Below, in pieces: positions 1 to 63,985 of a DNA stretch of 64,000 nucleotides (position 1 is the stretch's first letter; the number at the start of each line of letters is the position of its first letter). Source of the DNA: Escherichia phage 121Q. The notes below the pieces were generated by a model, which saw only the letters and a list, made by a program, of their open reading frames with translations, was not told the origin of the DNA and ran no database searches. Made by a program: the position numbers and the translations under genes. The stretch is from the sequence record NC_025447.1, one strand, 5' to 3'.

Positions 1-3000
1 AGCACTATTAAGTGTTGAGCTACCAGAAATATTAGCACTAGAAGCAGTAATAGTTCCAGAATCAACTTGTATACCACCAGCAACAACCTGAATTCCACCA
101 GCATTAACTGTTAGTTTACCAGCAGTATTCAATGTATTTGAAACTGTTGTTGCACCAGTTAAAGTTGTAGTGCCAGTTACACCTAAGTTACCAGAAATAG
201 ATGGACTACCTGTAATGTTACCAGTAGTTAGTATCAAATCAGTACCTACGGTAGTGGAGCCAGTACTTTCTAGTGTTACACCGACGATGTTTGCAGAACT
301 TAGGTTAATAGTACCATCAACAGTTAAGTTACCTTGAACGGTTGCATCACCTAGAGAAGTTAATGTCTTCACAGACACATCAGTTGTGCTAAGATCAATA
401 ACACCCGCAGTTAGTGTTCCAGATACTGCTAAATTACCAGTAATCGCGGTATTTTTAGTAATGGATACATTTTCTGCCGCTGAAGTAATAGAACCAACAG
501 TAAGTACACCACCAACAGTTGCGTTATTAGTTACATTTAGAGCAGTTCCAACACCAGATAGTGTTGCTGACCCACCAGTAATTGCACCTGAGATTGAAGC
601 TGTTGCTGCTGAAACATCACCAGAAACTACTGCATTTGTTGCATTTAGAGCAGACACTGTAACTTCAGTACTTTGAACTTTAGGTAGAACGTTGATACCT
701 TCTGCACTACTAACTGTAATAATACCAGTACTTGTTAGAGATTTAACAGATACATCAGCACCACTTAAATCAACTGTACCAGAAACAACAAGATCTCCAC
801 CAATATTTGCTCCAGCGGTAGTAGTAATGGATTTTGCACTTACATCAGTTGTGCTCAAATCAATTGCACCTGGTGTTACTGTACCAGAAACTGTTAGGTC
901 ACCAGTAATAGATGTATTATTGGAAATAGATACACCATCAACGTTACTAATTGTTGGGGTTTCTACAGAAACTGCTTTAACTTTACCTGAAGAAGTTACG
1001 TCAGCTACGGTAGATGCACCAGTAACATTCAAATTAGTAATATTTGCAGTTGTTGAACCAAGGGTTGCAATAGTTGCATCAGTACTTTGAAGTTTAGGTA
1101 GAACACTACTAATTGTGGATTCATTACTAACAATTGCACCAGTACTAGTTAAAGATTTGACAGTAACATCAGCCGTAGTAAGATCTACTGTACCATTAAC
1201 AGTTAGGTTACCACCAATAGTTGCACCAGCAGTAGTAGTAATGGATTTAGCATTAACATCAGTTGTTGCTAGATCGATAGAGCCTGGAATAACTGCACCA
1301 GTAACAGTTAGGTCACCAGTTACATTTGTATTATTGGAAATAGTGACACCACTTGCATTTGAAATGGTTGGGGTAACCAACGATGCAGTTGTAGTTTCAC
1401 CAGTTACAGTTAAAGTTGACCCAACTAGAACAGATGAGCTTGAGTAAATTGTACCCAAATTAGCAGATCCGGTAACAGTTATATCATCAGCATTAACAGT
1501 AGTTGCCGTTATGGTAGTACTATTAAGTACTGGAAGTACGTTAGCATTAACAAGATCATTACTTTTAACAATACCAGAAGTAGTTAATGATTTAACATTA
1601 AGGTCGGCTGCTGATAAATCAAAAGAGCCTTGAACTACTAAATCACCACCAATAGTTGCACCAGCAGTAGTAGTGATTGATTTAGCATTAATATCGGTAG
1701 TGCTCAAGTCTAGAGAACCAACAGTTAAGCTACCAGTAATATCAACATTTTCTGTAAAGTTAGTATTACCACTAATAGTTGGTGCAGTCAGAGTTGTTGC
1801 ACTAATATTAGTACCGTTAATTGTTTGCCCACTTACAGTTCCACTCGCAGTGATAGTAGGGGCCGTTACTTCAGTAGATGCACTAATTGTTGGTGCAGAT
1901 ACAGAAGTTGTACCAGTAATAGAACCAGAACTTACTGAACCAGCGGATAATGCACCAGAAAGAGTTGCAGTTGTACCAGCAATATCACCAGTAACAGTTA
2001 GTTTAGCACCCACGGTAGTGTTACCAGTACTTTCAAGTGTTGCACCTTTAATATTTGCTGCCGCGACAACAGAATTAGGTGTTAGATCCTGCCCACTAAC
2101 ATCAACAGTTAGTCCAGTTACTGTTCCAGTAAATTCAACATCATTAAGAATTGCTTTACCACCAACTTGTAGGAATGGTGTACCTGGAGCTTGTGTTTCG
2201 TTACCAGTAATAGTTAGGTAATCTAGTTTGTTTAGACCGTTACCAGTAATACCATAAGTGGAAAGAGAAGCGTTACCGAAAGTTGCTGTTTTAAGAACGT
2301 TCAATGTAGAAGGAGAAACGACTTCTGATTGAACTTCGTTAGGTAGAATAACTGTTGGGCGTTGACCTGGTGCAGTATATCCAAAACCTAGTTTCACTGC
2401 CGCATCTTGACTATTTTGACCTAAGCTGATAGCTTTAAAGGATGCAGTACTGTTATAACCAGTAATATTAGAACCAAGAGTAACACCACCAACTAATGAA
2501 GTTACACCAGTAACGTTCAAAGATACTGCATTAATATCGTCTAGTTGGAACGTTCCACCAAGAAGACCAGAAACATTAATGTTATTAAAATTAGCAGTAC
2601 CAGTACTTTCGATATTTGGAATAGTTGCAGTTCCGGTTACTTCAAAGTCAGCAACTTTAGTTTTTCCTTTTTGAACTTCTAATAGTGGTGTGTCTGGTGA
2701 TTGTGTATTGTTACCAGAAACTGTTAGATAATCTAATTTGTTTAGACCATTACCAGTAATACCATAAGAAGATAATGACGCATTACCAAAAGAAGCAGAG
2801 GTCAATACTGTCAAGTTTGCAGGTGACATTAGCTCGGACTGAATTTCGTTTTGTAGAATAACAGTTGGGCGTTTACCAGGAGCAGTGTAAGGGAAGCTTA
2901 ATCTGAAGGTTTGTGATTCAGAGTTAGAACCAATACGAATGTCTTTAAAAGTAGCAGTACTGTTAATACCAGTTACGTTAGCACCGAAAGTTACTGCACC

Positions 3001-7970: not shown

Positions 7971-8044
7971 TATTTATCAGTACAAAATACATTTCGTTAT
8001 CATTAATAAATAAATGAAAGTTCACTACTAAAAGGGCTTAAACA

Positions 8045-13614: not shown

Positions 13615-13654
13615 GATTGTCTCCAAAATAAATCGGGTATATCTTTATTTACCT

Positions 13655-13684
13655 TGTAGACAAACCGTAAGAATGTGATATAAT
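13655..13684 (+). promoter_or_regulatory. Sigma70-type promoter candidate for the ClpA-like gene
   Basis: TTGTAGAC -35-like element, 17-nt spacer, TGATATAAT with TATAAT at 13679-13684. Confidence 0.4.
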
Positions 13685-31301: not shown

Positions 31302-31337
31302 AAAGATATCCTCGTTTTATTTATAGTGCTAAAATAT

Positions 31338-36275: not shown

Positions 36276-36590
36276 TTAGCCTATGTTTCGAGTACCATTA
36301 AGATAATTCTGTACTCTTTGATTTGCTGGTATTCTAATTGTTACTCCACTTTTAAAATTATATATAGGATCTTCTCCTAGTATGTCTGGATTTAACAATG
36401 CGAAAATATAATATAAGCGTTCATTACCATACATTTCGTATGCTAAACGCCAAGGTTGATATTCATATTTCAATGGGATCTCATAAAAATCATCAGTATC
36501 AGCCGGAACAATATCACGTGGTAAATTATACCCAAGATACCATGTTTGTTTCACCTTAGCGTAAGGTGAGTATTGACTATAGTTGGACAT
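36276..36590 (-). CDS. Small tail protein with possible LysM-like segment
   Basis: 104 aa; LYYIFALLNPDILGEDPIYNFKSGVTIRIP loosely resembles a LysM motif; 1-nt overlap with the upstream gene. Confidence 0.35.
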   Translation of the reverse strand: MSNYSQYSPYAKVKQTWYLGYNLPRDIVPADTDDFYEIPLKYEYQPWRLAYEMYGNERLYYIFALLNPDILGEDPIYNFKSGVTIRIPANQRVQNYLNGTRNIG

Positions 36591-37321
36591 TAAATGAATC
36601 CTCCTTTACGTAATAGTTCACCACGTTTGAATGCATTGAGGTTGAACGTTTTAGTCATATAATCCGATGTTGGTTGTTCTTCAAGTTGTAACATAACTGA
36701 GATTTTTTGTGGAACCCAAACTTCATCTTGTGGGTTCATATATCCAGTACTTCTAAGTTGTTCGAAGAATTTTCTACTATCCATGTCGGATAAATTAAAA
36801 GTACTATCGCTACTATTCAACGGAACTTGAATATAAGAAACATCATTTGGGTAAGTAAAATTATAAGATTTTAAAATAACAGGAATATCATTATATGTAT
36901 AACGACCATATCCACTTAGAAGTAAGATTGGTGGTGGTGCACCTGCAATTGCGAGTTCGGGGTTATTAGCCGAAGCAGCTTGTCTACCAAAATCCATCAA
37001 TGAAACAGAACGTATAAAATGAACACATGCCAACGCATACATAGCTTCTGCTGCTGTATTTGCATAAAATTCACCCTGAATAGTGAAAACTGTATTAGTA
37101 GTGTTCTTATAGTTGTTATAGTTACTGTTGGTATGTATAGGAGACTGTGTTTCATACTGAATTGACCTTTGTTCAGTAATTGTTGGTGTTACAGTCCAAA
37201 CCAACCCATTAGTTGGACGCAGAAACGAAAGTAGTGTTGGTTCGGAGCTATCCCCGAAATCACCATATACATAGTTAGCACCTGCGGCTTTAGGTCGTAA
37301 TCGAATTCTACGATCAATCAT
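36590..37321 (-). CDS. Hypothetical tail or baseplate protein
   Basis: Start moved to the ATG at 37319-37321 (GGAGAA 8 nt upstream, downstream of a TATAAATA late promoter); the ORF-track start at 37411 has no ribosome-binding site. Confidence 0.4.
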   Translation of the reverse strand: MIDRRIRLRPKAAGANYVYGDFGDSSEPTLLSFLRPTNGLVWTVTPTITEQRSIQYETQSPIHTNSNYNNYKNTTNTVFTIQGEFYANTAAEAMYALACVHFIRSVSLMDFGRQAASANNPELAIAGAPPPILLLSGYGRYTYNDIPVILKSYNFTYPNDVSYIQVPLNSSDSTFNLSDMDSRKFFEQLRSTGYMNPQDEVWVPQKISVMLQLEEQPTSDYMTKTFNLNAFKRGELLRKGGFI

Positions 37322-37356
37322 CTTTTTGATTCTCCATAATAAGGGAACATTTGATG

Positions 37357-37364
37357 TATTTATA
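37357..37364 (-). promoter_or_regulatory. T4-type late promoter TATAAATA
   Basis: Minus strand reads TATAAATA about 36 nt upstream of the ATG at 37321. Confidence 0.45.
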
Positions 37365-37366
37365 CG

Positions 37367-37395
37367 TGGGACAAAATGCTTTTTGGTGCTATAAT
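37367..37395 (+). promoter_or_regulatory. Sigma70-type promoter (TGGGAC-N17-TATAAT) for the sigma-like gene
   Basis: TGGGAC 37367-37372, 17-nt spacer, GGTGCTATAAT with TATAAT at 37390-37395; same motif as at 42068 and 63957. Confidence 0.5.
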
Positions 37396-37452
37396 AACAT
37401 TGATGGTACAAGGATTGTACCTATTGGATTTAAACATGGAGAGTAAAATACA

Positions 37453-38292
37453 ATGACAAATAGACCAAAGCGTAAAAAGTATCTCAATAATGCTGATTTA
37501 CTTCGTGAAATACAAAAAAGTAAGATTTCATACTGCTGGTTATTAGACAAATCATATAGTATGTATGATTATATTGTTTTTCATGAGTCAGAAATTACTG
37601 CTGAGTTACTTGAAAAAGCCAAAGCAGCACGAATCAAACGACTAAACAATGAAATGCTTGATAGTATTCGTGAAAAGGAAAGTATGAGTGCTAAAAAAGC
37701 TAAAGAATATGCAGATGAAAATAATTTAGTTATCACTGATGTTCCAATCGATGAAGTTGTTATTCGTGTTATCACTGATGAACATATTCCACCCGACACT
37801 AGAGTTAACTTTGAACCATTCAAGCATTACATTGTAGATAATGAAGGAATTCTCTATGAAGTATGTCGTTCTCATTGGAAAGGAGATCTTGAAACTGGTG
37901 AATTCAGTACTGTTCATGGTAAAATTACAAATGAACTAGGGAAGATGTTCATTAAACTTGCTGAGGAAATCTCTCATAAATCTAATTACAGAAACTATAC
38001 ATACTTAGATGAAATGATGGGTGATGCAAGAATACAATTAGTTAAAAACGCACTTCTCTTTAAAGAGAGCATTCTTTATAAAAAAGATAAACCAGCAGTT
38101 CAGCTAAATCCTTTCTCTTACTATACATCATTCGTAAACAATAGTTTTCGTTCTATATTGAATAGTGAGAAAAATGTTCGAAATATACGTGATGATTTAC
38201 TTGAAATGCATGGCTTTACGCCATCACATACACGTCAAATTGAAATTGAATTGAACATGATTGAAAGGAAAAATGAAGATGGCTCTGTTTGA
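37453..38292 (+). CDS. Putative late-transcription sigma factor, gp55-like
   Basis: N-terminus PKRKKYLNNADLLREIQKSK resembles my recollection of T4 gp55 (PKYNYVNNKELLQAII); adjacent to the gp47/gp46 homologs as in T4; TATAAATA motifs occur upstream of structural genes. Longer than T4 gp55, so tentative. Confidence 0.45.
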   Translation: MTNRPKRKKYLNNADLLREIQKSKISYCWLLDKSYSMYDYIVFHESEITAELLEKAKAARIKRLNNEMLDSIREKESMSAKKAKEYADENNLVITDVPIDEVVIRVITDEHIPPDTRVNFEPFKHYIVDNEGILYEVCRSHWKGDLETGEFSTVHGKITNELGKMFIKLAEEISHKSNYRNYTYLDEMMGDARIQLVKNALLFKESILYKKDKPAVQLNPFSYYTSFVNNSFRSILNSEKNVRNIRDDLLEMHGFTPSHTRQIEIELNMIERKNEDGSV

Positions 38293-41500: not shown

Positions 41501-41976
41501 ATATCAACCATATTTAATTTACCGTCCTTAATCAGCTTTCTAGCTTGCTTTACACGAGCAGTAGTGTTACTACCAGGGACAACTCCTAACCCTTCCAGAA
41601 TCGCGTTTTGCTGTGTTGCTGGAAGCCTTTTAAACTTATTAACATCCACAGTTAGTGCAGTGTGATGTATAACTTGTTCATCGTCAGGAATGCTGTTATT
41701 ACGCTCTAAGTAATCAGCAAGATTTCTGAGTACCTCATATAATGGTTTATCAGTTAAGTGCTTCATATATCGATTGAAGCTGTTTTGTACCTTTCCTTCC
41801 CAAGCATTGACTTCATTTTGAAGAACTTGTCTACAATGTTGGTTTCCATAGTGGTAGTGATCCAGTACTGGTTTAGTTATTGGTTCTTTAATTATAGGAT
41901 CTATTCCATTTTGTTTCTTTAGTAATTCGTTTCGATAGTTTGCAGCATCCTTACTATCTTTTAATCTTTTTTTCAT
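41485..41976 (-). CDS. Endonuclease VII-like protein (junction resolvase or homing-endonuclease-like)
   Basis: 163 aa; VLDHYHYGNQHCRQVLQNEVNAWEGKVQNSFNRY resembles the T4 endonuclease VII core (HLDHDHELNG...AAEGQMKHKFNR) as I recall it; minus-strand TATAAATA at 42007-42014 upstream. Confidence 0.5.
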   Translation of the reverse strand: MKKRLKDSKDAANYRNELLKKQNGIDPIIKEPITKPVLDHYHYGNQHCRQVLQNEVNAWEGKVQNSFNRYMKHLTDKPLYEVLRNLADYLERNNSIPDDEQVIHHTALTVDVNKFKRLPATQQNAILEGLGVVPGSNTTARVKQARKLIKDGKLNMVDIKKGS

Positions 41977-42006
41977 AATTCCTCACCAAACTATTTGTTA
42001 TCAAAA

Positions 42007-42014
42007 TATTTATA
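42007..42014 (-). promoter_or_regulatory. T4-type late promoter TATAAATA
   Basis: Minus strand reads TATAAATA about 30 nt upstream of the ATG at 41976. Confidence 0.45.
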
Positions 42015-42067
42015 GATTAGTTATTTGCAATATTTTAAGTACTTAATGAATATTTTTATAAAAATAG

Positions 42068-42096
42068 TGAGACAACTTTAAAGTTTGTGCTATAAT
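42068..42096 (+). promoter_or_regulatory. Sigma70-type promoter (TGAGAC-N17-TATAAT) with no downstream ORF
   Basis: TGAGAC 42068-42073, 17-nt spacer, TGTGCTATAAT with TATAAT at 42091-42096. Confidence 0.5.
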
Positions 42097-42102
42097 GTTT
42101 GT

Positions 42103-42557
42103 TGTAGTAATGACAATCCTGTTGAATGCAGAAATGCATATAAATTAGAACCTGATCCTATCGAAAATGTAGATGGCAGATGAGCAGTTCAACAGTGCGA
42201 TGAGCAAAAGAAACCCGTTAGATGTGGGCATAGTTTGAACCCCTCACGGCAATGCGGCTCAATAAAGAACTCCGATAAGCATACAGAGAGTTCCTCGATA
42301 GACATATAAGGATCGCACCTTACCAGATTTGCTAAGGGAGTTTATTAAGTGATTTTAATAAACAGCCTGAAGTTTGATTGTATAGACTTTCAGGTGAGTG
42401 TCAGGATGATTAAGACTGACGACCGTTGCACATGACTGCGATAGAGAGAAACAGAGCAACCCGCTTTCGTTCTTAATATATTTTTAAGAAATTCGCAATA
42501 CAATAAATGCTGAAACCATCAGCGTCAAGAAATAGAGACTTCATTGTCTCTTTTTTA
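42103..42557 (+). ncRNA. Candidate structured non-coding RNA (~450 nt), function unknown
   Basis: Bracketed by the promoter at 42068-42096 and the terminator at 42534-42557; no ORF of 60 aa or more on either strand; visibly more GC-rich than its surroundings; several local hairpins (CCTGAA/TTCAGG, GTCAG/CTGAC, GTTGC/GCAAC, CCTTA/TAAGG). No tRNA T-loop signature found. Confidence 0.4.
42534..42557 (+). terminator. Rho-independent terminator
   Basis: AGAGAC-TTCATT-GTCTCT followed by TTTTTT. Confidence 0.6.
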
Positions 42558-42773
42558 TTGTCTTCATTCCCCTGCGGGGGGATGAAAATGTCCTCAACAA
42601 ATCCCGTCAAGTATTAAATCTTTTAAAGTTCTTTATAATTAATTTAATTAAATGAATATGAGTTACGTAGTAACGAATATTCTTCAGCTAACGAATGAAA
42701 TGAGTTAGATGAATCCAATAATATTAAAATTAATCCTTTCATAATTCAATTCAAATAATTCTGTAGTTTAAAA

Positions 42774-42801
42774 CCAAAAAAAACCAGCAACAATGTGCTG
42801 G
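42774..42801 (-). terminator. Rho-independent terminator of the minus-strand operon ending at 42813
   Basis: Stem CCAGCA/TGCTGG (42784-42801); the plus-strand A-run 42774-42783 is a T-run on the minus strand. Confidence 0.55.
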
Positions 42802-42812
42802 CTATATGAAAA

Positions 42813-43022
42813 TTAGTGCTTCTCGTTTTGTTTTTTAATTTTTTTATTAAAAGACTTAACTAATAAGTCTCTATCTATTAATGGCATATTAAGGAGTGTT
42901 CCATAGTCAATGTTATCCATATATACAGAACATTCCATTAGTGCATTTTTGATTTCTGACTTATTCAGTTCTATCTCCTTCAGTACTTCTTGTATTTCTT
43001 CAGGAGATGACTGGAGAAGCAT
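42813..43022 (-). CDS. Hypothetical small protein
   Basis: 69-aa ORF with 1-nt overlap to the upstream gene; charged, coiled-coil-like. Confidence 0.35.
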   Translation of the reverse strand: MLLQSSPEEIQEVLKEIELNKSEIKNALMECSVYMDNIDYGTLLNMPLIDRDLLVKSFNKKIKKQNEKH

Positions 43023-43858: not shown

Positions 43859-43988
43859 TTTATTAAATCTCCATGTAATAAATGTGTTTTAGTATTTATA
43901 AGACCAAAAAAGATTAAATTAAACTAATTTTTATATTCTCTATAGTTTCATAAATATTTCTATAATACATCTATTAAAAGGGAATGTT

Positions 43989-49850: not shown

Positions 49851-49858
49851 TATAAATA
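49851..49858 (+). promoter_or_regulatory. T4-type late promoter TATAAATA upstream of the scaffold gene
   Basis: TATAAATA at 49851-49858, about 48 nt upstream of the ATG at 49906; overlapped by an inverted repeat at 49856-49881. Confidence 0.45.
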
Positions 49859-49905: not shown

Positions 49906-51021
49906 ATGTCTAAATTAGAAAAGCTTCTAAAAGAATCATCTCTTTCTGATGAGGCAAAACAGCTAATTCAGGAAGCATGGAATGAAGAAAAGAATACACT
50001 AGCCGCAGAGATGCGTGAAGAAATGAAAGGCCGTTATCAGCAAGATTTGGCTGAACTAACCGAAGGTTTGAACACTATGGTTACTCAAGTCATTGCTGAA
50101 GAAATGGGTGCTGTATATGAAGAGAAAAAACGTCTCGTTGAAGATCGTGTAACTCTACGTAAAACACTAAGCAATTTCTCTGCGTTTTCAAACTCTGTTT
50201 TGGCTGAAGAAGTTAAACAAATGCGTAAAGAACGTAAGCATCTTCATGAATGCATGGGTAAATTCGTTAATTTTTCTAACGGTATCCTAGCAGAAGAGCT
50301 AAAAGAATTCCACACTGAAAAACGCCAACTAGTAGAAACTCGCGTTAAACTACTTGCTGAAGGTTCACGTCAAATTGCTGAAGCTCGTAATAACTTCATC
50401 AAACGTACATCTGAAAGTGCTGCTAAATATATTGCAGAAACCACTCAGAAGAATCTATATGCGTTGAAACAAGATCTAGTGGAAGCAAAACAAAATATGT
50501 TTGGTCGTAAAATCTTTGAAGCATTTGCTCAAGAGTTTAATGTCAAACAATTTAATGAAAACTCATTGCTACGTTCCCTAACTGAATCAATTAAATCTAA
50601 AGAAGATGAAATTGCTCAAGTTAAGCAAGAACTACATGAAACTGCTAATGCCGTTAAAGCTGCTAAAACCAAACTACGTATTATGGAAGATGCACAAGCA
50701 CGTAATGCGATTATGTCTGAACTAGTAAAACCACTAACTGCACAGCAAAAACAAATTATGGAATCCCTTCTAGCTACTTCACCTACTGAAAAGCTTAAAG
50801 AAGATTTCAGCAAGTACCATAAGTCAGTACTTAACGGTACTAAAGTAAATGAATCTGCTACCACTCGTCAAGCAGTTCAGTCTTCCGCTAAGAAAACTCT
50901 TGCAGAAGGTAAAGTAATCACTGGCAACCGTCAGGCTATTGTTGAAAGCGAAGAAATGACCGCTGACGATATGGCATTCCTAAAAGAACTAGATGTTCTT
51001 TCAGGTATCAATAAAAAATAA
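49906..51021 (+). CDS. Prohead scaffold protein (T4 gp22-like)
   Basis: 371 aa, Glu/Lys/Ala/Leu-rich and predicted alpha-helical; sits between the protease and major capsid genes. Confidence 0.6.
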   Translation: MSKLEKLLKESSLSDEAKQLIQEAWNEEKNTLAAEMREEMKGRYQQDLAELTEGLNTMVTQVIAEEMGAVYEEKKRLVEDRVTLRKTLSNFSAFSNSVLAEEVKQMRKERKHLHECMGKFVNFSNGILAEELKEFHTEKRQLVETRVKLLAEGSRQIAEARNNFIKRTSESAAKYIAETTQKNLYALKQDLVEAKQNMFGRKIFEAFAQEFNVKQFNENSLLRSLTESIKSKEDEIAQVKQELHETANAVKAAKTKLRIMEDAQARNAIMSELVKPLTAQQKQIMESLLATSPTEKLKEDFSKYHKSVLNGTKVNESATTRQAVQSSAKKTLAEGKVITGNRQAIVESEEMTADDMAFLKELDVLSGINKK

Positions 51022-51059: not shown

Positions 51060-51067
51060 TATAAATA
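51060..51067 (+). promoter_or_regulatory. T4-type late promoter TATAAATA upstream of the major capsid gene
   Basis: TATAAATA at 51060-51067, 45 nt upstream of the ATG at 51113; the extended motif TAAATAATATCATACT recurs upstream of 48335. Confidence 0.5.
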
Positions 51068-52360: not shown

Positions 52361-52434
52361 TATTAAAAAACCCTTTACACAATGTTCTGGAATGTATATA
52401 ATACGCACATACACGAAAATAAAGAGACAAAATT

Positions 52435-53532
52435 ATGCCAAACGTAAGTATCAACAAAGAAGAGTTTATCAGCAAAATGACTGCTAAGTATGGTGAATTT
52501 GATTTCAGTACTTTAGTATTCAAAGCAAGTAAAACAACTGTGAAATGTAACAAGTGTGGAAAAGAAAACATAAAATCTGCACTTCGTCACATTGCATGTA
52601 CATGTGCATCATGTTATTCAAACATGTCGCAACGTTCAAACAACGACACATTCATCAGCACGGTAGAAAATAAATTTGGTAAAGATAAATTCAAATTTGA
52701 TAAACTAAATTACACTAACGCTATAACAAAAGTAACACTCTTTTGCACTGATGAAGAGCACAACGATTACTTTGAAATAACACCAAACAAATTTCTTTCT
52801 GGTAAGGGATGTCCTGTGTGTAATAAAAATGAAGCATACAGTACTGAATCATTCACTGCAAAAGTAAAAGAAAACTATGGTGATGCATTGGATTTGACAA
52901 ATACTGTTTATGTCAATCAGAAAACTAAAGTAACGGTTCATTGCACAAAAGGACATCACGACTGGACAGTAGATCCAAAAACTTTAATCGTCGGTAAAAC
53001 TGGCTGTGGTACATGCTCTGGTAAAGGTGGACGAAGTACTGAGCGTTTCATTGAACTAGTATCACCAATTCATAACCATAAGTATGATTATAGCTTGGTG
53101 GATTATACAACAAGTGAGAAGTATGTGGATATTGTGTGTCCGACGCATGGTGTTTTTTCCCAACAACCAAAAGCACATATGGCGGGTAAAGGATGTCCAT
53201 CATGTGGTGAATATGGATATCAACCATCAAAACCTGGATATTTCTATGTTCAAAAACTAACTAACAATGACAAGACGGTGTACAAATATGGAATCACTGG
53301 TGATATGAAACGCCGTGTAAACGAACAAAGTCGTAATTCTGGGTTCGAACATGAAGTACTAGTAGAACGCTACTTTGAAGATGGAAATCAACCATTACTG
53401 TTGGAAAAGTTCATAAAGAAATACATTGAAAGTGGAGTAGTAAGTACTGAAGAGTTGCCGTCAGGATTTACTGAAACGTTTGATGAAAAGTATCTAAAAT
53501 CTGTACTGGAAATTGTAAATAACTTTAAGTAA
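52435..53532 (+). CDS. Homing-endonuclease-like protein: three zinc-ribbon repeats plus C-terminal GIY-YIG/T5orf172-like domain
   Basis: 365 aa; repeats ...CTDEEHNDYFEITPNKFLSGKGCPVC, ...CTKGHHDWTVDPKTLIVGKTGCGTC, ...CPTHGVFSQQPKAHMAGKGCPSC; C-terminal GYFYVQKLTNNDKTVYKYGITGDMKRRVNEQ. Confidence 0.5.
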   Translation: MPNVSINKEEFISKMTAKYGEFDFSTLVFKASKTTVKCNKCGKENIKSALRHIACTCASCYSNMSQRSNNDTFISTVENKFGKDKFKFDKLNYTNAITKVTLFCTDEEHNDYFEITPNKFLSGKGCPVCNKNEAYSTESFTAKVKENYGDALDLTNTVYVNQKTKVTVHCTKGHHDWTVDPKTLIVGKTGCGTCSGKGGRSTERFIELVSPIHNHKYDYSLVDYTTSEKYVDIVCPTHGVFSQQPKAHMAGKGCPSCGEYGYQPSKPGYFYVQKLTNNDKTVYKYGITGDMKRRVNEQSRNSGFEHEVLVERYFEDGNQPLLLEKFIKKYIESGVVSTEELPSGFTETFDEKYLKSVLEIVNNFK

Positions 53533-53927: not shown

Positions 53928-54254
53928 ATGATGGAGATTGAATCTATGTCACAGATATGTTATGTTATAATAAATTCTGCATGGCCTGAGTATGTTAAAA
54001 TTGGTTTTACTTCAAAATCAGAAATGACAGAACGTCTAAGAACGTATCAGACTGCTACACCATTTCGTGACTTTGAAGTATATCATGAAGTTCATTTTGA
54101 TGACGCACGTTTAGCTGAAAAAGAGATACATAAAAGGCTTAAACAAATGAATGCAACTAGACAACCAAACACGGAGTGGTTTAAAATGTCTAAAAAGATA
54201 GCAGCAAACATCATTGATTCTGTGTGGGATGATATGGATAACGACTTGCTATAG
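53928..54254 (+). CDS. GIY-YIG/T5orf172-like domain protein
   Basis: 108 aa; CYVIINSAWPEYVKIGFTSKSEMTERLRTYQT fits the pattern of a hydrophobic strand, then KIG-T, then a conserved Arg. Confidence 0.45.
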   Translation: MMEIESMSQICYVIINSAWPEYVKIGFTSKSEMTERLRTYQTATPFRDFEVYHEVHFDDARLAEKEIHKRLKQMNATRQPNTEWFKMSKKIAANIIDSVWDDMDNDLL

Positions 54255-55915: not shown

Positions 55916-56431
55916 ATGCAACTAACAAATTTTAAGATGTATGAAAAAGAAGGTGGTAATCCTAATTCTTTGTATATGATGTCCGATGAAGGTATGGATT
56001 GGTATGAATCTCGTGAATTGTTTGACATTAATAAAGCAAAATTTATGTATGATACTAATGGTTTAATTGTTTCAGCATCATATAACATTTATGATCTAGT
56101 ACCTTTAGGTTTTAGTGTTTCTGAAATTGAATATGATGGTGATATTAACAAACTTTATGGTATGGTTTACGATGGAAATACTATTCATGACTATATTGAA
56201 ACTAAAGAAGAAAAAATTGAACGCCTAAAAAATGAATTATCTAATTTGAAATACATTGCAATTCAAGAACTTGGACACTTAAAAACTGCTATGGATCTTG
56301 AGTTAGCAACTGATGAAGAAGCTGTATTGTTTGTAAAATTGAAAGATTATGTAACGCAATTGAATTCAATCAAACCAGCAGACATGATCAAGAAAACATT
56401 TTCATTTCCAGTTAAACCGGAAAAAAAATGA
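55916..56431 (+). CDS. Putative tail fiber assembly chaperone
   Basis: Immediately downstream of the fiber-like gene; start set to the ATG at 55916 (AAGGA 7 nt upstream). Assignment is by position and size only. Confidence 0.35.
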   Translation: MQLTNFKMYEKEGGNPNSLYMMSDEGMDWYESRELFDINKAKFMYDTNGLIVSASYNIYDLVPLGFSVSEIEYDGDINKLYGMVYDGNTIHDYIETKEEKIERLKNELSNLKYIAIQELGHLKTAMDLELATDEEAVLFVKLKDYVTQLNSIKPADMIKKTFSFPVKPEKK

Positions 56432-56464
56432 GACAACACGTAAAGACGTGATACAATTAAGTCA

Positions 56465-56497
56465 TCTCACCGATTGTGGTGAGGTGGCATTTTTTTT
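56465..56497 (+). terminator. Rho-independent terminator candidate
   Basis: CTCACC-GATTGT-GGTGAG hairpin followed within a few bases by an 8-nt T-run. Confidence 0.45.
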
Positions 56498-56522
56498 GAA
56501 AACACACATGGAGAAATACAAA

Positions 56523-60360: not shown

Positions 60361-60462
60361 TAAAAAATTGAGACAAGCATCATTTTTGAGATATAATGGT
60401 GCTTGTAGTAATCTTACATAAAAAAACATTTTTGATTAACAAATAAAACGGAGAATTATATA

Positions 60463-61194: not shown

Positions 61195-61258
61195 TATAAA
61201 TAACGGGGAACATAGTGTTCCCCAAATTGGTTTGATTTAAAAAGTAAAGGAATACAAA

Positions 61259-61465
61259 ATGCCATTATATACATATCGTTGTGAAAAAGAAGAATGCAAA
61301 CATAGCATGGAAAAAATTGTTAAAATTGCAAACCGTGATGAACCTCATGATTGTCCTAAATGTAATGGTGAAAAAACTATGAAGTTGGAAGTATTCACTC
61401 CAGGTGATAAGGGTGCTAATCTTTATTTCCGTGGAAAATGGTTTGCAAATACTGGAGGTTACTAA
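61259..61465 (+). CDS. Zinc-ribbon protein (FmdB-like)
   Basis: 68 aa; MPLYTYRCEKEEC ... CPKCNG gives two CxxC pairs. Confidence 0.5.
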   Translation: MPLYTYRCEKEECKHSMEKIVKIANRDEPHDCPKCNGEKTMKLEVFTPGDKGANLYFRGKWFANTGGY

Positions 61466-63956: not shown

Positions 63957-63985
63957 TGGGAAAGTGATTCAAGATGTGCTATAAT
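63957..63985 (+). promoter_or_regulatory. Sigma70-type promoter (TGGGAA-N17-TATAAT) reading out of the window
   Basis: TGGGAA 63957-63962, 17-nt spacer, TGTGCTATAAT with TATAAT at 63980-63985. Confidence 0.45.

What the first reader, a model, noticed from the sequence alone, without database searches (positions are those of the whole stretch)
37357..37395. Divergent promoter pair: late TATAAATA (minus) overlapping an early-type TGGGAC-N17-GGTGCTATAAT (plus)
The same early-type motif recurs at 42068-42096, 63957-63985 and, less exactly, 13655-13684. The late motif recurs at 51060, 49851 and 42007 (minus). This gives a sequence-level map of temporal classes; the overlap at 37357-37395 could couple the switch between the sigma-like gene and a structural operon.
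Basis: partly seen in the sequence, partly recalled or inferred. Interest (0 to 1): 0.45.

Follow-up and report, generated by a model that had tools for sequence, protein, structure and literature searches.

The report
Back-to-back late and middle-type phage promoters

Summary
The window is an Asteriusvirus (Rak2-like jumbo myovirus), 99.6-100% identical to phages G17 and Sharanji. Both motifs are at the stated coordinates. They are 2 bp apart, not overlapping.

TATAAATA (minus, 37364-37357) lies 35 nt upstream of a virion-structural and baseplate operon. TGGGAC-N17-TGCTATAAT (plus, 37367-37395) lies 57 nt upstream of a gp55-like late sigma gene. Neither is a chance match:
- All 7 TATAAATA and 19 of 20 ATAAATA in the window are intergenic or at a gene end, and point at a nearby start codon.
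- The second motif peaks only at a 17-bp spacing.
- 16 relatives from at least four genera keep both motifs 2-4 bp apart.

The "early-type" label is doubtful. Canonical TTGACA/TTGCAA promoters cluster in the small-ORF early region. This motif precedes replication genes and matches the "divergent RpoD-like" class published for phages CBB and GAP32, whose tables already list this same pair. The phage's own sigma-70-like factor probably reads it, but this is inferred. Coupling between the two promoters is untested.

Two extras came up. The sigma mRNA starts with a covarying 5' hairpin. The recurrence at 42068 drives a four-copy, roughly 0.5-kb structured RNA that is absent from Rfam.

The parts
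37357..37364 (-). T4-type late promoter TATAAATA. Predicted start is near 37351.
   Evidence: It lies 35 nt upstream of the ATG at 37321. The core TATTTAT is invariant in 13 relatives.
37331..37335 (-). Shine-Dalgarno sequence GGAGA of the leftward gene
   Evidence: TCTCC is conserved in all relatives.
36590..37321 (-). Virion structural protein gene (homologue of PBECO4 gp531), the first gene of the leftward baseplate and structural operon
   Evidence: PHROG 12050, E = 2e-150.
37367..37372 (+). -35-like box TGGGAC of the class-M promoter
   Evidence: Relatives have TGGGAC, TGAGAC, TGGAAC or TGAAAC at the same place.
37387..37395 (+). Extended -10 box TGCTATAAT. Predicted start is near 37402.
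   Evidence: TATAAT is invariant except for TATACT in XaC1.
37405..37421 (+). 5'-terminal hairpin of the sigma mRNA: GGTAC-AAGGATT-GTACC
   Evidence: found by the stem scan; predicted fold. Covariation: 100% of cells paired, and 3 of 5 pairs show compensatory changes across 8 distinct sequences. The loop motif is unique in the PBECO4 genome.
37438..37443 (+). Shine-Dalgarno sequence GGAGAG of the sigma gene
   Evidence: CATGGAG is conserved in relatives.
37453..38292 (+). gp55-like late sigma factor gene (279 aa; homologue of PBECO4 gp530)
   Evidence: PHROG 12791 (E = 3e-154) and PHROG 234 'late sigma transcription factor' (E = 8e-18, residues 125-262). No Pfam or PDB sequence match.
13656..13684 (+). 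Class-M promoter, looser copy (GTAGAC-N17-TGATATAAT), upstream of the ATP-dependent protease gene. A late-like GGTAAATAAAG lies on the other strand 1-2 bp away.
42068..42096 (+). Class-M promoter TGAGAC-N17-TGCTATAAT, which drives the structured RNA
42103..42613 (+). Structured non-coding RNA, one of four paralogous copies per genome. The covariation-supported core is 42157-42608.
   Evidence: no ORF; no Rfam match.
56429..56457 (+). Class-M promoter TGAGAC-N17-TGATACAAT, upstream of the gp513/DNA-polymerase genes
60369..60397 (+). Class-M promoter TGAGAC-N17-GAGATATAAT
63957..63985 (+). Class-M promoter TGGGAA-N17-TGCTATAAT. A late-type ATAAATA lies on the other strand 6 bp away.
31318..31325 (-). 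Late promoter TATAAATA, 16 nt upstream of the baseplate hub/lysozyme gene
42007..42014 (-). Late promoter TATAAATA, 30 nt upstream of the endonuclease VII gene
43893..43900 (-). Late promoter TATAAATA, 34 nt upstream of the baseplate hub gene
43950..43956 (+). Late promoter ATAAATA, 32 nt upstream of a virion structural gene. It is paired divergently with the late promoter at 43893.
49851..49858 (+). Late promoter TATAAATA, 47 nt upstream of the gene at 49906
51060..51067 (+). Late promoter TATAAATA, 45 nt upstream of the major head protein gene
61195..61202 (+). Late promoter TATAAATA, 56 nt upstream of the gene at 61259
7971..7977 (-). Late promoter, 7-mer form ATAAATA. Other 7-mer-only sites: 8006+, 26059-, 30359-, 47947+, 53910+, 54257+, 63880-, 63944-.
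   Evidence: All are non-coding and point at a start codon 26-110 nt away.

Best explanation
The 131-bp gap at 37322-37452 is a conserved bidirectional promoter region of a Rak2-like jumbo phage.

Leftwards. A T4-type late promoter (core ATAAATA, here TATAAATA) is read by host RNA polymerase carrying the phage's gp55-like sigma. It starts transcription about 29 nt upstream of a virion-structural and baseplate operon.

Rightwards, 2 bp away. A promoter of a phage-specific class (class M: TG(G/A)GAC, a 17-bp spacer, TGnTATAAT) starts transcription near 37402. The transcript begins with a conserved 5'-terminal hairpin and encodes the gp55-like late sigma factor itself.

Class M differs from the phage's canonical sigma-70-type early promoters. 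It serves replication and nucleotide-metabolism genes, the late sigma gene and four structured RNAs, so it behaves like a middle (delayed-early) class. The most likely order is: host sigma-70 early promoters, then class M, then late promoters.

What is shown and what is inferred:
- Shown: the motifs, their geometry, their genome-wide distribution, and their conservation.
- Inferred: the transcription start sites, the timing, and the identity of the factor that reads the class-M -35 box. The phage's own sigma-70-family protein (the PBECO4 gp356 homologue) is the leading candidate.
For: Identity of the window. It is 99.6-100% identical to phages G17 and Sharanji, and 99.4% to PBECO4.

Geometry. 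The late motif is 35 nt from its ATG and the class-M -10 box is 57 nt from its ATG, each with a Shine-Dalgarno sequence. The flanking genes are a structural protein and a gp55-like sigma.

Late class.
- 7 of 7 TATAAATA and 19 of 20 ATAAATA in the window are intergenic or at a gene end, and point at a start codon.
- The 8-mer is about five times depleted genome-wide, and 13 of 15 copies are non-coding.

Class M.
- There is a sharp peak at N17 only.
- About 23 non-coding sites in PBECO4 lie upstream of the genes for DNA polymerase, topoisomerase II, SSB (two sites), primase, exonuclease, RNase H, the thymidylate synthase operon, a Lon-like protease and gp55-like sigma.

A separate early class. 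The TTGACA/TTGCAA type clusters at 132-153 kb and 174-200 kb.

Conservation. All 16 relatives examined keep both motifs 2-4 bp apart. They come from Asteriusvirus, Alcyoneusvirus, Eneladusvirus, Mimasvirus and unclassified groups.

Published parallel. CBB Tables S6 and S7 list Porf_244 (168,994-169,022, TGGAAC...TATAAT) and Porf_243 (168,976-168,989, ATAAATACTTGATA). The text places the gp55-like gene under the 'divergent RpoD-like' promoter. The fHe-Yen9-03 GenBank record annotates a -35 and a -10 box at this site.

Candidate reader.
- A protein with sigma-70 regions 2, 3 and 4 is encoded by every Rak2-like genome found.
- In PBECO4 it lies downstream of an early-type TTGACA promoter.
- Its putative -35-reading helix is SR(S/T)S(I/L)HR in the PBECO4, Ecwhy_1 and fENko phages, which use TGGGAC. 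It is SKATLSR in CBB and Serratia BF, which use TGGAAC or TGAAAC. Yet the fENko sigma is closer overall to CBB's (45% identity) than to PBECO4's (38%).
Against: - No transcription start or timing data exist for any Rak2-like genus in the paper library. The class names are therefore predictions.
- A perfect TATAAT with an extended -10 TG and a partial GACA -35 box should also be usable by host sigma-70 alone. That would make the class early.
- The phage sigma lacks the W433/W434 pair of region 2.3 (aligned by eye against E. coli sigma-70 recalled from memory). This sits oddly with reading a canonical TATAAT.
- The helix/motif co-variation rests on three lineages. For the fENko lineage it rests on a single promoter.
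- Gene maps for the statistics came from my own simple ORF caller (616 genes against 551 annotated). They were checked against the RefSeq annotation only inside the window.
Confidence: 0.72

Rival explanations
1. The plus-strand promoter is an ordinary early promoter read by unmodified host sigma-70. It is an extended -10 promoter with a weak -35 box, so the late sigma gene is switched on immediately after infection.
For: - GGGACA with a 16-bp spacer matches TTGACA at 4 of 6 positions. Together with TGnTATAAT it scores 10 of 12 in the sigma-70 scan.
- A-rich tracts like an UP element (an A/T-rich upstream promoter element bound by the polymerase alpha subunit) precede most class-M sites.
- No AsiA-like anti-sigma factor is detectable.
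Against: - The G residues at the first positions of the box are conserved and the spacing is fixed at one value. The phage's TTGACA promoters use spacers of 16, 17 or 18 bp.
- The class is absent from the early small-ORF cluster and enriched before replication genes.
- The box changes between genera together with the phage sigma's helix.
- The CBB authors separated it from their RpoD-like early set.
Confidence: 0.3
2. Coupled switch. Because the two promoters are 2 bp apart, a polymerase bound at one excludes a polymerase at the other. Once late complexes load on TATAAATA they shut off further synthesis of the late sigma (negative feedback). Before that, class-M complexes keep the structural operon silent.
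For: - The 2-4 bp spacing is kept in all 16 relatives, although the rest of the gap diverges.
- Two more late/class-M pairs in the window are 1-6 bp apart, at 13641/13656 and 63944/63957.
- CBB lists Porf_234 and Porf_235 3 bp apart.
- Known polymerase footprints (about -55 to +20 for sigma-70 holoenzyme; about -35/-40 to +20 at T4 late promoters, from general knowledge) would overlap over roughly 37347-37391.
Against: - The gap (131 bp) is about the sum of the two promoters and their leaders, so compaction alone predicts abutting promoters.
- One late/class-M pair is 53 bp apart (42007/42068), and late/late pairs are 28-49 bp apart. Abutment is therefore not obligatory.
- There is no functional test.
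Confidence: 0.3
3. The motifs are chance matches in AT-rich intergenic DNA.
For: - The TATAAATA count in the window is below the shuffle expectation.
- The generic sigma-70 scan finds as many sites as in shuffled sequence, 76 against 74.
Against: Position, orientation, the peak at a single spacing, genome-wide depletion inside genes, and invariance across at least four genera.
Confidence: 0.02

Closest known systems
Promoter classes predicted for the Rak2-like phages vB_PcaM_CBB and GAP32 (Buttimer et al. 2017, PMC5259590; the paper cites Abbasifar et al. 2014 for GAP32)
   Same: - The same three classes are described: RpoD-like promoters with an UP-like element in the early small-ORF region; 'divergent RpoD-like' promoters (TGAAACG-type -35 box plus TATAAT) before DNA-synthesis genes and the gp55-like gene; and ATAAATA before structural genes.
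- The homologous pair Porf_243/Porf_244 is in their Tables S6 and S7, 4 bp apart.
   Different: - Here the -35-like box is TG(G/A)GAC rather than TG(A/G)AAC.
- No promoter analysis of an Asteriusvirus was found in the papers searched.
- The CBB paper does not comment on the back-to-back arrangement, on its conservation, or on the 5' hairpin.
Bacteriophage T4 late promoters (TATAAATA, read by gp55 with gp33 and the gp45 clamp; Geiduschek and Kassavetis 2010, cited from memory and)
   Same: - The 8-mer is identical and sits as a -10-like element a few tens of nt before late and structural genes.
- A gp55-family sigma is encoded.
- The motif is avoided inside genes.
   Different: - The effective core here is the 7-mer ATAAATA.
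- The gp55-like protein is 279 aa, with an N-terminal extension of about 120 residues. T4 gp55 is 185 aa (from memory).
- A gp33 homologue was not found by the CBB authors, but is reported for this phage group by Iyer et al.. I did not test this.
T4 middle promoters (sigma appropriation by MotA and AsiA)
   Same: - A sigma-70-type -10 box is combined with a non-canonical upstream box.
- The class serves replication genes and the late-sigma gene, between the early and late classes.
   Different: - The box lies at the -35 position with a fixed 17-bp spacer, not as a MotA box centred at -30.
- The TGCTT at 37377-37381 is 6 bp too close to the -10 box and is not conserved.
- No AsiA homologue is detectable.
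- The phage encodes a full sigma-70-family factor instead.
Sigma cascades of Bacillus phage SPO1 (gp28, then gp33/34), recalled from memory
   Same: Successive phage-encoded sigma factors redirect the host core polymerase from early to middle to late promoters.
   Different: - The proteins and motifs are unrelated.
- Here the last step uses a T4-type gp55.
- The middle step is inferred, not shown.

Membership tests
T4-type late promoter | TATAAATA (or a close variant) acting as the only promoter element, at about -13 to -6 | tested here: met
   There is an exact 8-mer at 37364-37357. The core is invariant in 13 relatives.
T4-type late promoter | Located upstream of late (virion) genes in the right orientation | tested here: met
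   It is 35 nt upstream of a structural and baseplate operon. All 7 window copies behave the same way.
T4-type late promoter | The phage encodes a gp55-family sigma | tested here: met
   PHROG 234, E = 8e-18.
T4-type late promoter | Co-activator gp33 and a sliding clamp acting as a mobile enhancer | not tested
   The literature conflicts: not found in CBB, but reported for this phage group.
T4-type late promoter | Transcripts start about 6 nt downstream of the motif, late in infection | not testable with these tools
   No transcriptome of a Rak2-like phage is in the library.
Rak2-like 'divergent RpoD-like' (class M) promoter | A TG(A/G)(A/G)AC box, a 17-bp spacer, and TATAAT usually preceded by TG | tested here: met
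   TGGGAC-N17-TGCTATAAT. There is a peak at a single spacing.
Rak2-like 'divergent RpoD-like' (class M) promoter | Precedes the gp55-like gene and the DNA-synthesis genes | tested here: met
   CBB Porf_244 is the homologous site.
Canonical sigma-70 early promoter of this phage | A TTGACA or TTGCAA -35 box | tested here: not met
   The box is TGGGAC, or GGGACA with a 16-bp spacer, which matches TTGACA at 4 of 6 positions.
Canonical sigma-70 early promoter of this phage | Membership of the early small-ORF clusters | tested here: not met
   The early cluster lies at 132-153 kb and 174-200 kb of PBECO4. This site is at 310 kb, between late genes.
T4 middle (MotA/AsiA-dependent) promoter | A MotA box (a/t)(a/t)(a/t)TGCTT(t/c)A centred at -30 | tested here: not met
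   TGCTT lies at -25 to -21 and is not conserved in relatives.
T4 middle (MotA/AsiA-dependent) promoter | The phage encodes AsiA | tested here: not met
   tblastn of T4 AsiA against PBECO4 gives a best E-value of 0.83. None of the sampled rows from 1173 matching records is a genome of this size. A remote homologue cannot be excluded.

The most novel reading that the evidence does not exclude
The TG(G/A)GAC-N17-TGnTATAAT promoters are read not by host sigma-70 but by the phage's own sigma-70-family factor, whose -35-reading helix changes together with the box between genera. A T4-related jumbo phage would then run a three-sigma cascade: host sigma-70, then a phage sigma-70-like factor, then gp55-like sigma. 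The same regulon would express four paralogous structured RNAs of about 0.5 kb that are unknown to Rfam. The back-to-back geometry and the 5' hairpin would give feedback control of late-sigma synthesis.
Probability: 0.3. Interest if true: 0.7.

Novelty: new member of a known kind. Interest (0 to 1): 0.35.

Why it matters
For the promoter pair itself, the value is mainly in annotation. It gives a sequence-level map of temporal classes for Asteriusvirus phages, which are being developed for therapy and have about 80% unknown genes. It also shows that the late-sigma gene sits under a distinct, conserved promoter class.

The wider interest lies in what the class points to. One is a testable case of a phage-encoded sigma-70-family factor with its own -35 specificity placed upstream of a T4-type late system. 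The other is a set of abundant-looking structured RNAs under the same control, whose function is unknown.

Tried and rejected
- MotA-box reading of the spacer TGCTT: wrong position and not conserved.
- AsiA homologue: none found by tblastn.
- Pfam and PDB sequence searches of the gp55-like protein: no hits. Only the PHROG families identify it.
- Rfam on the whole window at gathering thresholds, and on 41950-42850 at E up to 1: nothing credible.
- Homology of the structured RNA to the RNA-seq-supported ncRNA001 and ncRNA002 of the distant relative PA5oct: no nhmmer hit. PA5oct expression data therefore cannot be used to time class M.
- Literature searches for transcriptomes or promoter studies of Asteriusvirus, Alcyoneusvirus or Eneladusvirus: none found.
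- Generic sigma-70 consensus scan: uninformative, 76 sites against 74 in shuffled sequence.
- The 5' hairpin as a terminator or a Shine-Dalgarno decoy: rejected. No U-run follows it in most relatives, and the loop variant ACGGAT is not Shine-Dalgarno-like.
- The hairpin as a palindromic DNA operator: disfavoured. The outer stem positions co-vary instead of being conserved.

Full report
**What the window is.** A 6-kb stretch around the finding is 99.6% identical to Escherichia phages vB_EcoM_G17 and Sharanji, and 99.4% to PBECO4. The window therefore comes from an Asteriusvirus, one of the Rak2-like jumbo myoviruses. In the RefSeq annotation of PBECO4 the finding lies between two genes. One is gp531, a virion structural protein, on the minus strand in the window at 36590-37321. 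It heads a run of baseplate wedge and hub genes. The other is gp530, annotated "sigma factor for late transcription", on the plus strand at 37453-38292.

**The observation.** The sequence reads GTATTTATA-CG-TGGGAC-AAAATGCTTTTTGGTGC-TATAAT.
- TATAAATA is on the minus strand at 37364-37357.
- TGGGAC is at 37367-37372.
- TATAAT is at 37390-37395, after a 17-nt spacer, and is preceded by TGC (an extended -10).
- The two motifs abut, 2 bp apart, rather than overlap.
- The late motif ends 35 nt before the ATG at 37321, with GGAGA as the Shine-Dalgarno sequence.
- The -10 box ends 57 nt before the ATG at 37453, with GGAGAG as the Shine-Dalgarno sequence.

Several were missed. For the late motif these are 31318(-), 43893(-) and 61195(+). 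For the two-box motif they are 56429(+) and 60369(+).

**Is it more than chance?**
- The raw count of TATAAATA is unremarkable: 7 found against 11 expected. The placement is what matters. All 7 copies are intergenic, and each points at a start codon 16-56 nt away.
- For the 7-mer ATAAATA, 17 of 20 copies are non-coding, 2 straddle a gene end and 1 is coding. About 5% of the window is non-coding.
- I assembled the PBECO4 genome. It has only 15 TATAAATA, against a median of 70 for 8-mers of the same composition, and 13 of the 15 are non-coding. The word is therefore avoided inside genes, as expected for a functional promoter element.
- For the two-box motif I varied the spacer. TG[AG][GA]A[CA]-Nk-TA[TC]AAT gives 27 hits (18 non-coding) at k = 17, and 1-8 hits (0-2 non-coding) at every other k from 8 to 27. 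The window alone gives 6 non-coding hits at k = 17, all on the plus strand.

**Conservation.** I fetched the homologous gap from 16 relatives: Asteriusvirus, Alcyoneusvirus, Eneladusvirus, Mimasvirus and unclassified phages of Klebsiella, Salmonella, Erwinia and Xanthomonas. Their flanking genes are 66-99% identical to the window. Every one of them has TATTTAT(N), then 2-4 nt, then TG(G/A)(G/A)A(C/T) (TTGAAT in RaK2 and K64-1), then 17 nt, then TG(N)TATAAT. In the alignment the invariant blocks are the late core, the TG of the upstream box, the -10 box, the two Shine-Dalgarno sequences and the start codons.

**Which class is the plus-strand promoter?** I listed every non-coding TATAAT of PBECO4 together with its upstream sequence. 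The sites fall into groups.
- One group carries TTGACA, or a repeated cassette (aaaGTACTTGCAa...GCGTATAATgttttacatc). It is concentrated at 132-153 kb and 174-200 kb, among very small ORFs. This is the expected host-takeover early region.
- The other group carries TG(G/A)GACAa...tGTG(a/c)TATAATg and is dispersed. It lies upstream of the DNA polymerase operon, topoisomerase II, the single-strand DNA-binding protein SSB (two sites), primase, an exonuclease, RNase H, the thymidylate synthase operon, a Lon-like protease and the gp55-like gene.

This matches the paper on phage CBB, which reports three classes:
- RpoD-like promoters with an UP-like element (an A/T-rich upstream promoter element) in the early region.
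- A second, "divergent RpoD-like" class, with TGAAACG in place of TTGACA. It precedes DNA-synthesis genes and the gp55-like gene, and was also seen in GAP32.
- An ATAAATA motif before structural genes.

Its supplementary tables list Porf_244 (TGGAACGTTTTTTAAAATTGTGGTATAAT, 168,994-169,022) and Porf_243 (ATAAATACTTGATA, 168,976-168,989). These are the homologues of the two motifs of the finding. The GenBank record of Yersinia phage fHe-Yen9-03 also annotates a -35 and a -10 signal at this site. The pair itself has already been tabulated in a relative, though not discussed.

**Who reads it?**
- The gp55-like protein matches PHROG 234, "late sigma transcription factor" (E = 8e-18), over residues 125-262. 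It has no Pfam or PDB sequence match.
- PBECO4 also encodes gp356, with sigma-70 regions 2, 3 and 4. Its closest solved relatives are RpoD and SigA. It lies downstream of an early-type TTGACA promoter.
- A homologue is present in every Rak2-like genome found.
- I aligned six of these proteins. By my own by-eye alignment to E. coli sigma-70 region 4.2, recalled from memory, one segment should be the -35-reading helix. It reads SR(S/T)S(I/L)HR in PBECO4, Ecwhy_1 and fENko-Kae01, whose sigma-gene promoters carry TGGGAC. It reads SKATLSR in CBB and Serratia BF, whose promoters carry TGGAAC or TGAAAC.
- Overall, the fENko protein is closer to CBB's (45% identity) than to PBECO4's (38%). The helix therefore tracks the promoter box rather than the overall protein tree.

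This is suggestive, not proof. It rests on three lineages, on one fENko promoter, and on a protein that lacks the tryptophan pair of region 2.3. Host sigma-70 could plausibly use these extended -10 promoters unaided. I found no AsiA homologue. The spacer's TGCTT is not a MotA box: it is in the wrong position and is not conserved.

I put the probability that class M needs a phage factor, and is therefore "middle", at about 0.6-0.65. The probability that it is simply early is about 0.3.

**Coupling.**
- The predicted start sites are about 37351 (minus) and 37402 (plus), which is 51 bp apart.
- From what is generally known of polymerase footprints, both promoters cannot be occupied at once. Mutual exclusion is therefore physically likely.
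- Two other late/class-M pairs in the window are 1-6 bp apart (13641/13656 and 63944/63957). CBB lists Porf_234 and Porf_235 3 bp apart.
- However, the gap is no longer than the two promoters plus their leaders. A fourth pair is 53 bp apart (42007/42068).
- Whether the adjacency is a regulatory device or mere compaction cannot be decided from sequence.

**An additional feature of the site.** The sigma mRNA would begin, 3 nt after its predicted start, with the hairpin GGTAC-AAGGATT-GTACC (37405-37421).
- In relatives the outer three stem pairs change in a compensatory way: GGCAC/GTGCC, AGGAC/GTCCT, GGGAC/GTCTC, AGAAC/GTTCT, AAAAC/GTTTT, TGAAC/GTTCA.
- The closing AC...GT and the loop A(A/C)GGAT(N) stay fixed.
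- On the eight distinct sequences, 100% of cells pair and 3 of 5 pairs show double changes. No shuffle or slid register comes close. I chose the alignment by eye, so it leans towards the structure.
- The motif occurs once in the PBECO4 genome.
- A 5'-terminal stem fits mRNA protection. The invariant loop suggests a specific binding partner. Both are inferences.

**Where the recurrence at 42068 led.** That promoter fires into an 836-bp stretch with no annotated gene, no ORF over 45 aa and no Rfam match.
- The stretch is conserved at 67-76% identity in all Rak2-like genera and occurs 4-5 times per genome.
- PBECO4 has four copies, each in its own gene-free gap and each behind a class-M promoter. 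One lies directly after the sigma-70-like gene.
- A pattern search of viral contigs gave 19 further copies, nearly all on contigs of 350-370 kb.
- RNAalifold on 18 sequences predicts 86 pairs, 49 of them with compensatory changes. 96% of cells pair, against about 40% in slid registers, and no shuffle out of 500 reaches the observed values.
- This is a structured RNA family of roughly 450-500 nt. Its core is window 42157-42608. Its function is unknown, and I found no description of it.
- It is not detectably related to the RNA-seq-defined ncRNA001 and ncRNA002 of phage PA5oct.

**Verdict.**
It is wrong or imprecise about "early-type" and "overlapping". The coupling idea is untested.
- Both promoter kinds, and this very pair, are already in the literature on related phages. 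The finding itself is therefore a new member of a known kind and of modest interest.
- Three by-products are the more novel leads: a likely phage-sigma-specific middle regulon, a covarying 5' hairpin on the late-sigma mRNA, and a four-copy structured RNA.

Noticed in passing
window 42103-42613 (core 42157-42608); PBECO4 copies at about 305471-304920, 38576-37965, 94225-93655 and 195560-195097; loci L024-L042: A structured non-coding RNA of about 450-500 nt. It occurs 4-5 times per genome in all Rak2-like jumbo phages, and each copy follows a class-M promoter. 86 pairs are predicted, 49 with compensatory changes, and 96% of cells pair. It is not in Rfam 15 and is not annotated in most records (UE-S1 calls it 'repeat_region'). 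Its function is unknown.
   Followed up: partly
window 37405-37421: A conserved 5'-terminal hairpin on the mRNA of the gp55-like sigma. The stem co-varies, and the loop A(A/C)GGAT(N) is invariant across genera. The motif is unique in the PBECO4 genome.
   Followed up: yes
window 56429-56500: The class-M promoter upstream of the DNA-polymerase operon is followed, within about 10 nt of its predicted start, by a terminator-like hairpin CTCACC-GATTGT-GGTGAG and a U-run. This may be an attenuator, or only the terminator of the upstream tail-fibre genes.
   Followed up: no
window 52375-53532: A 365-aa gene absent from PBECO4 is inserted just after the major head protein gene. It has its own TTTACA-N17-TATAAT promoter (52375-52403). 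It has treble-clef zinc-finger (DUF4379) and DUF723 matches, so it looks like a mobile, homing-endonuclease-type gene. A GIY-YIG/T5orf172 gene lies nearby at 53946-54254.
   Followed up: partly
PBECO4 132-153 kb (loci L004, L005): About 18 near-identical copies of an early promoter cassette (aaaGTACTTGCAa-N-GCGTATAATgttttacatc). Each precedes a very small ORF.
   Followed up: no
window 338-2940: Stretches that my ORF caller left 'intergenic' are mutually similar repeats, for example 677-826 and 1091-1240. They probably belong to one long repetitive fibre or adhesin-like ORF that runs off the window or lies on the other strand.
   Followed up: no
L005 45592-46557 (PBECO4 gp356) and homologues L044-L048: The phage sigma-70-family factor diverges fast (30-60% identity between genera). 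It lacks the W433/W434 pair of region 2.3. Its putative region 4.2 helix differs between phages that use TGGGAC and those that use TGGAAC.
   Followed up: partly
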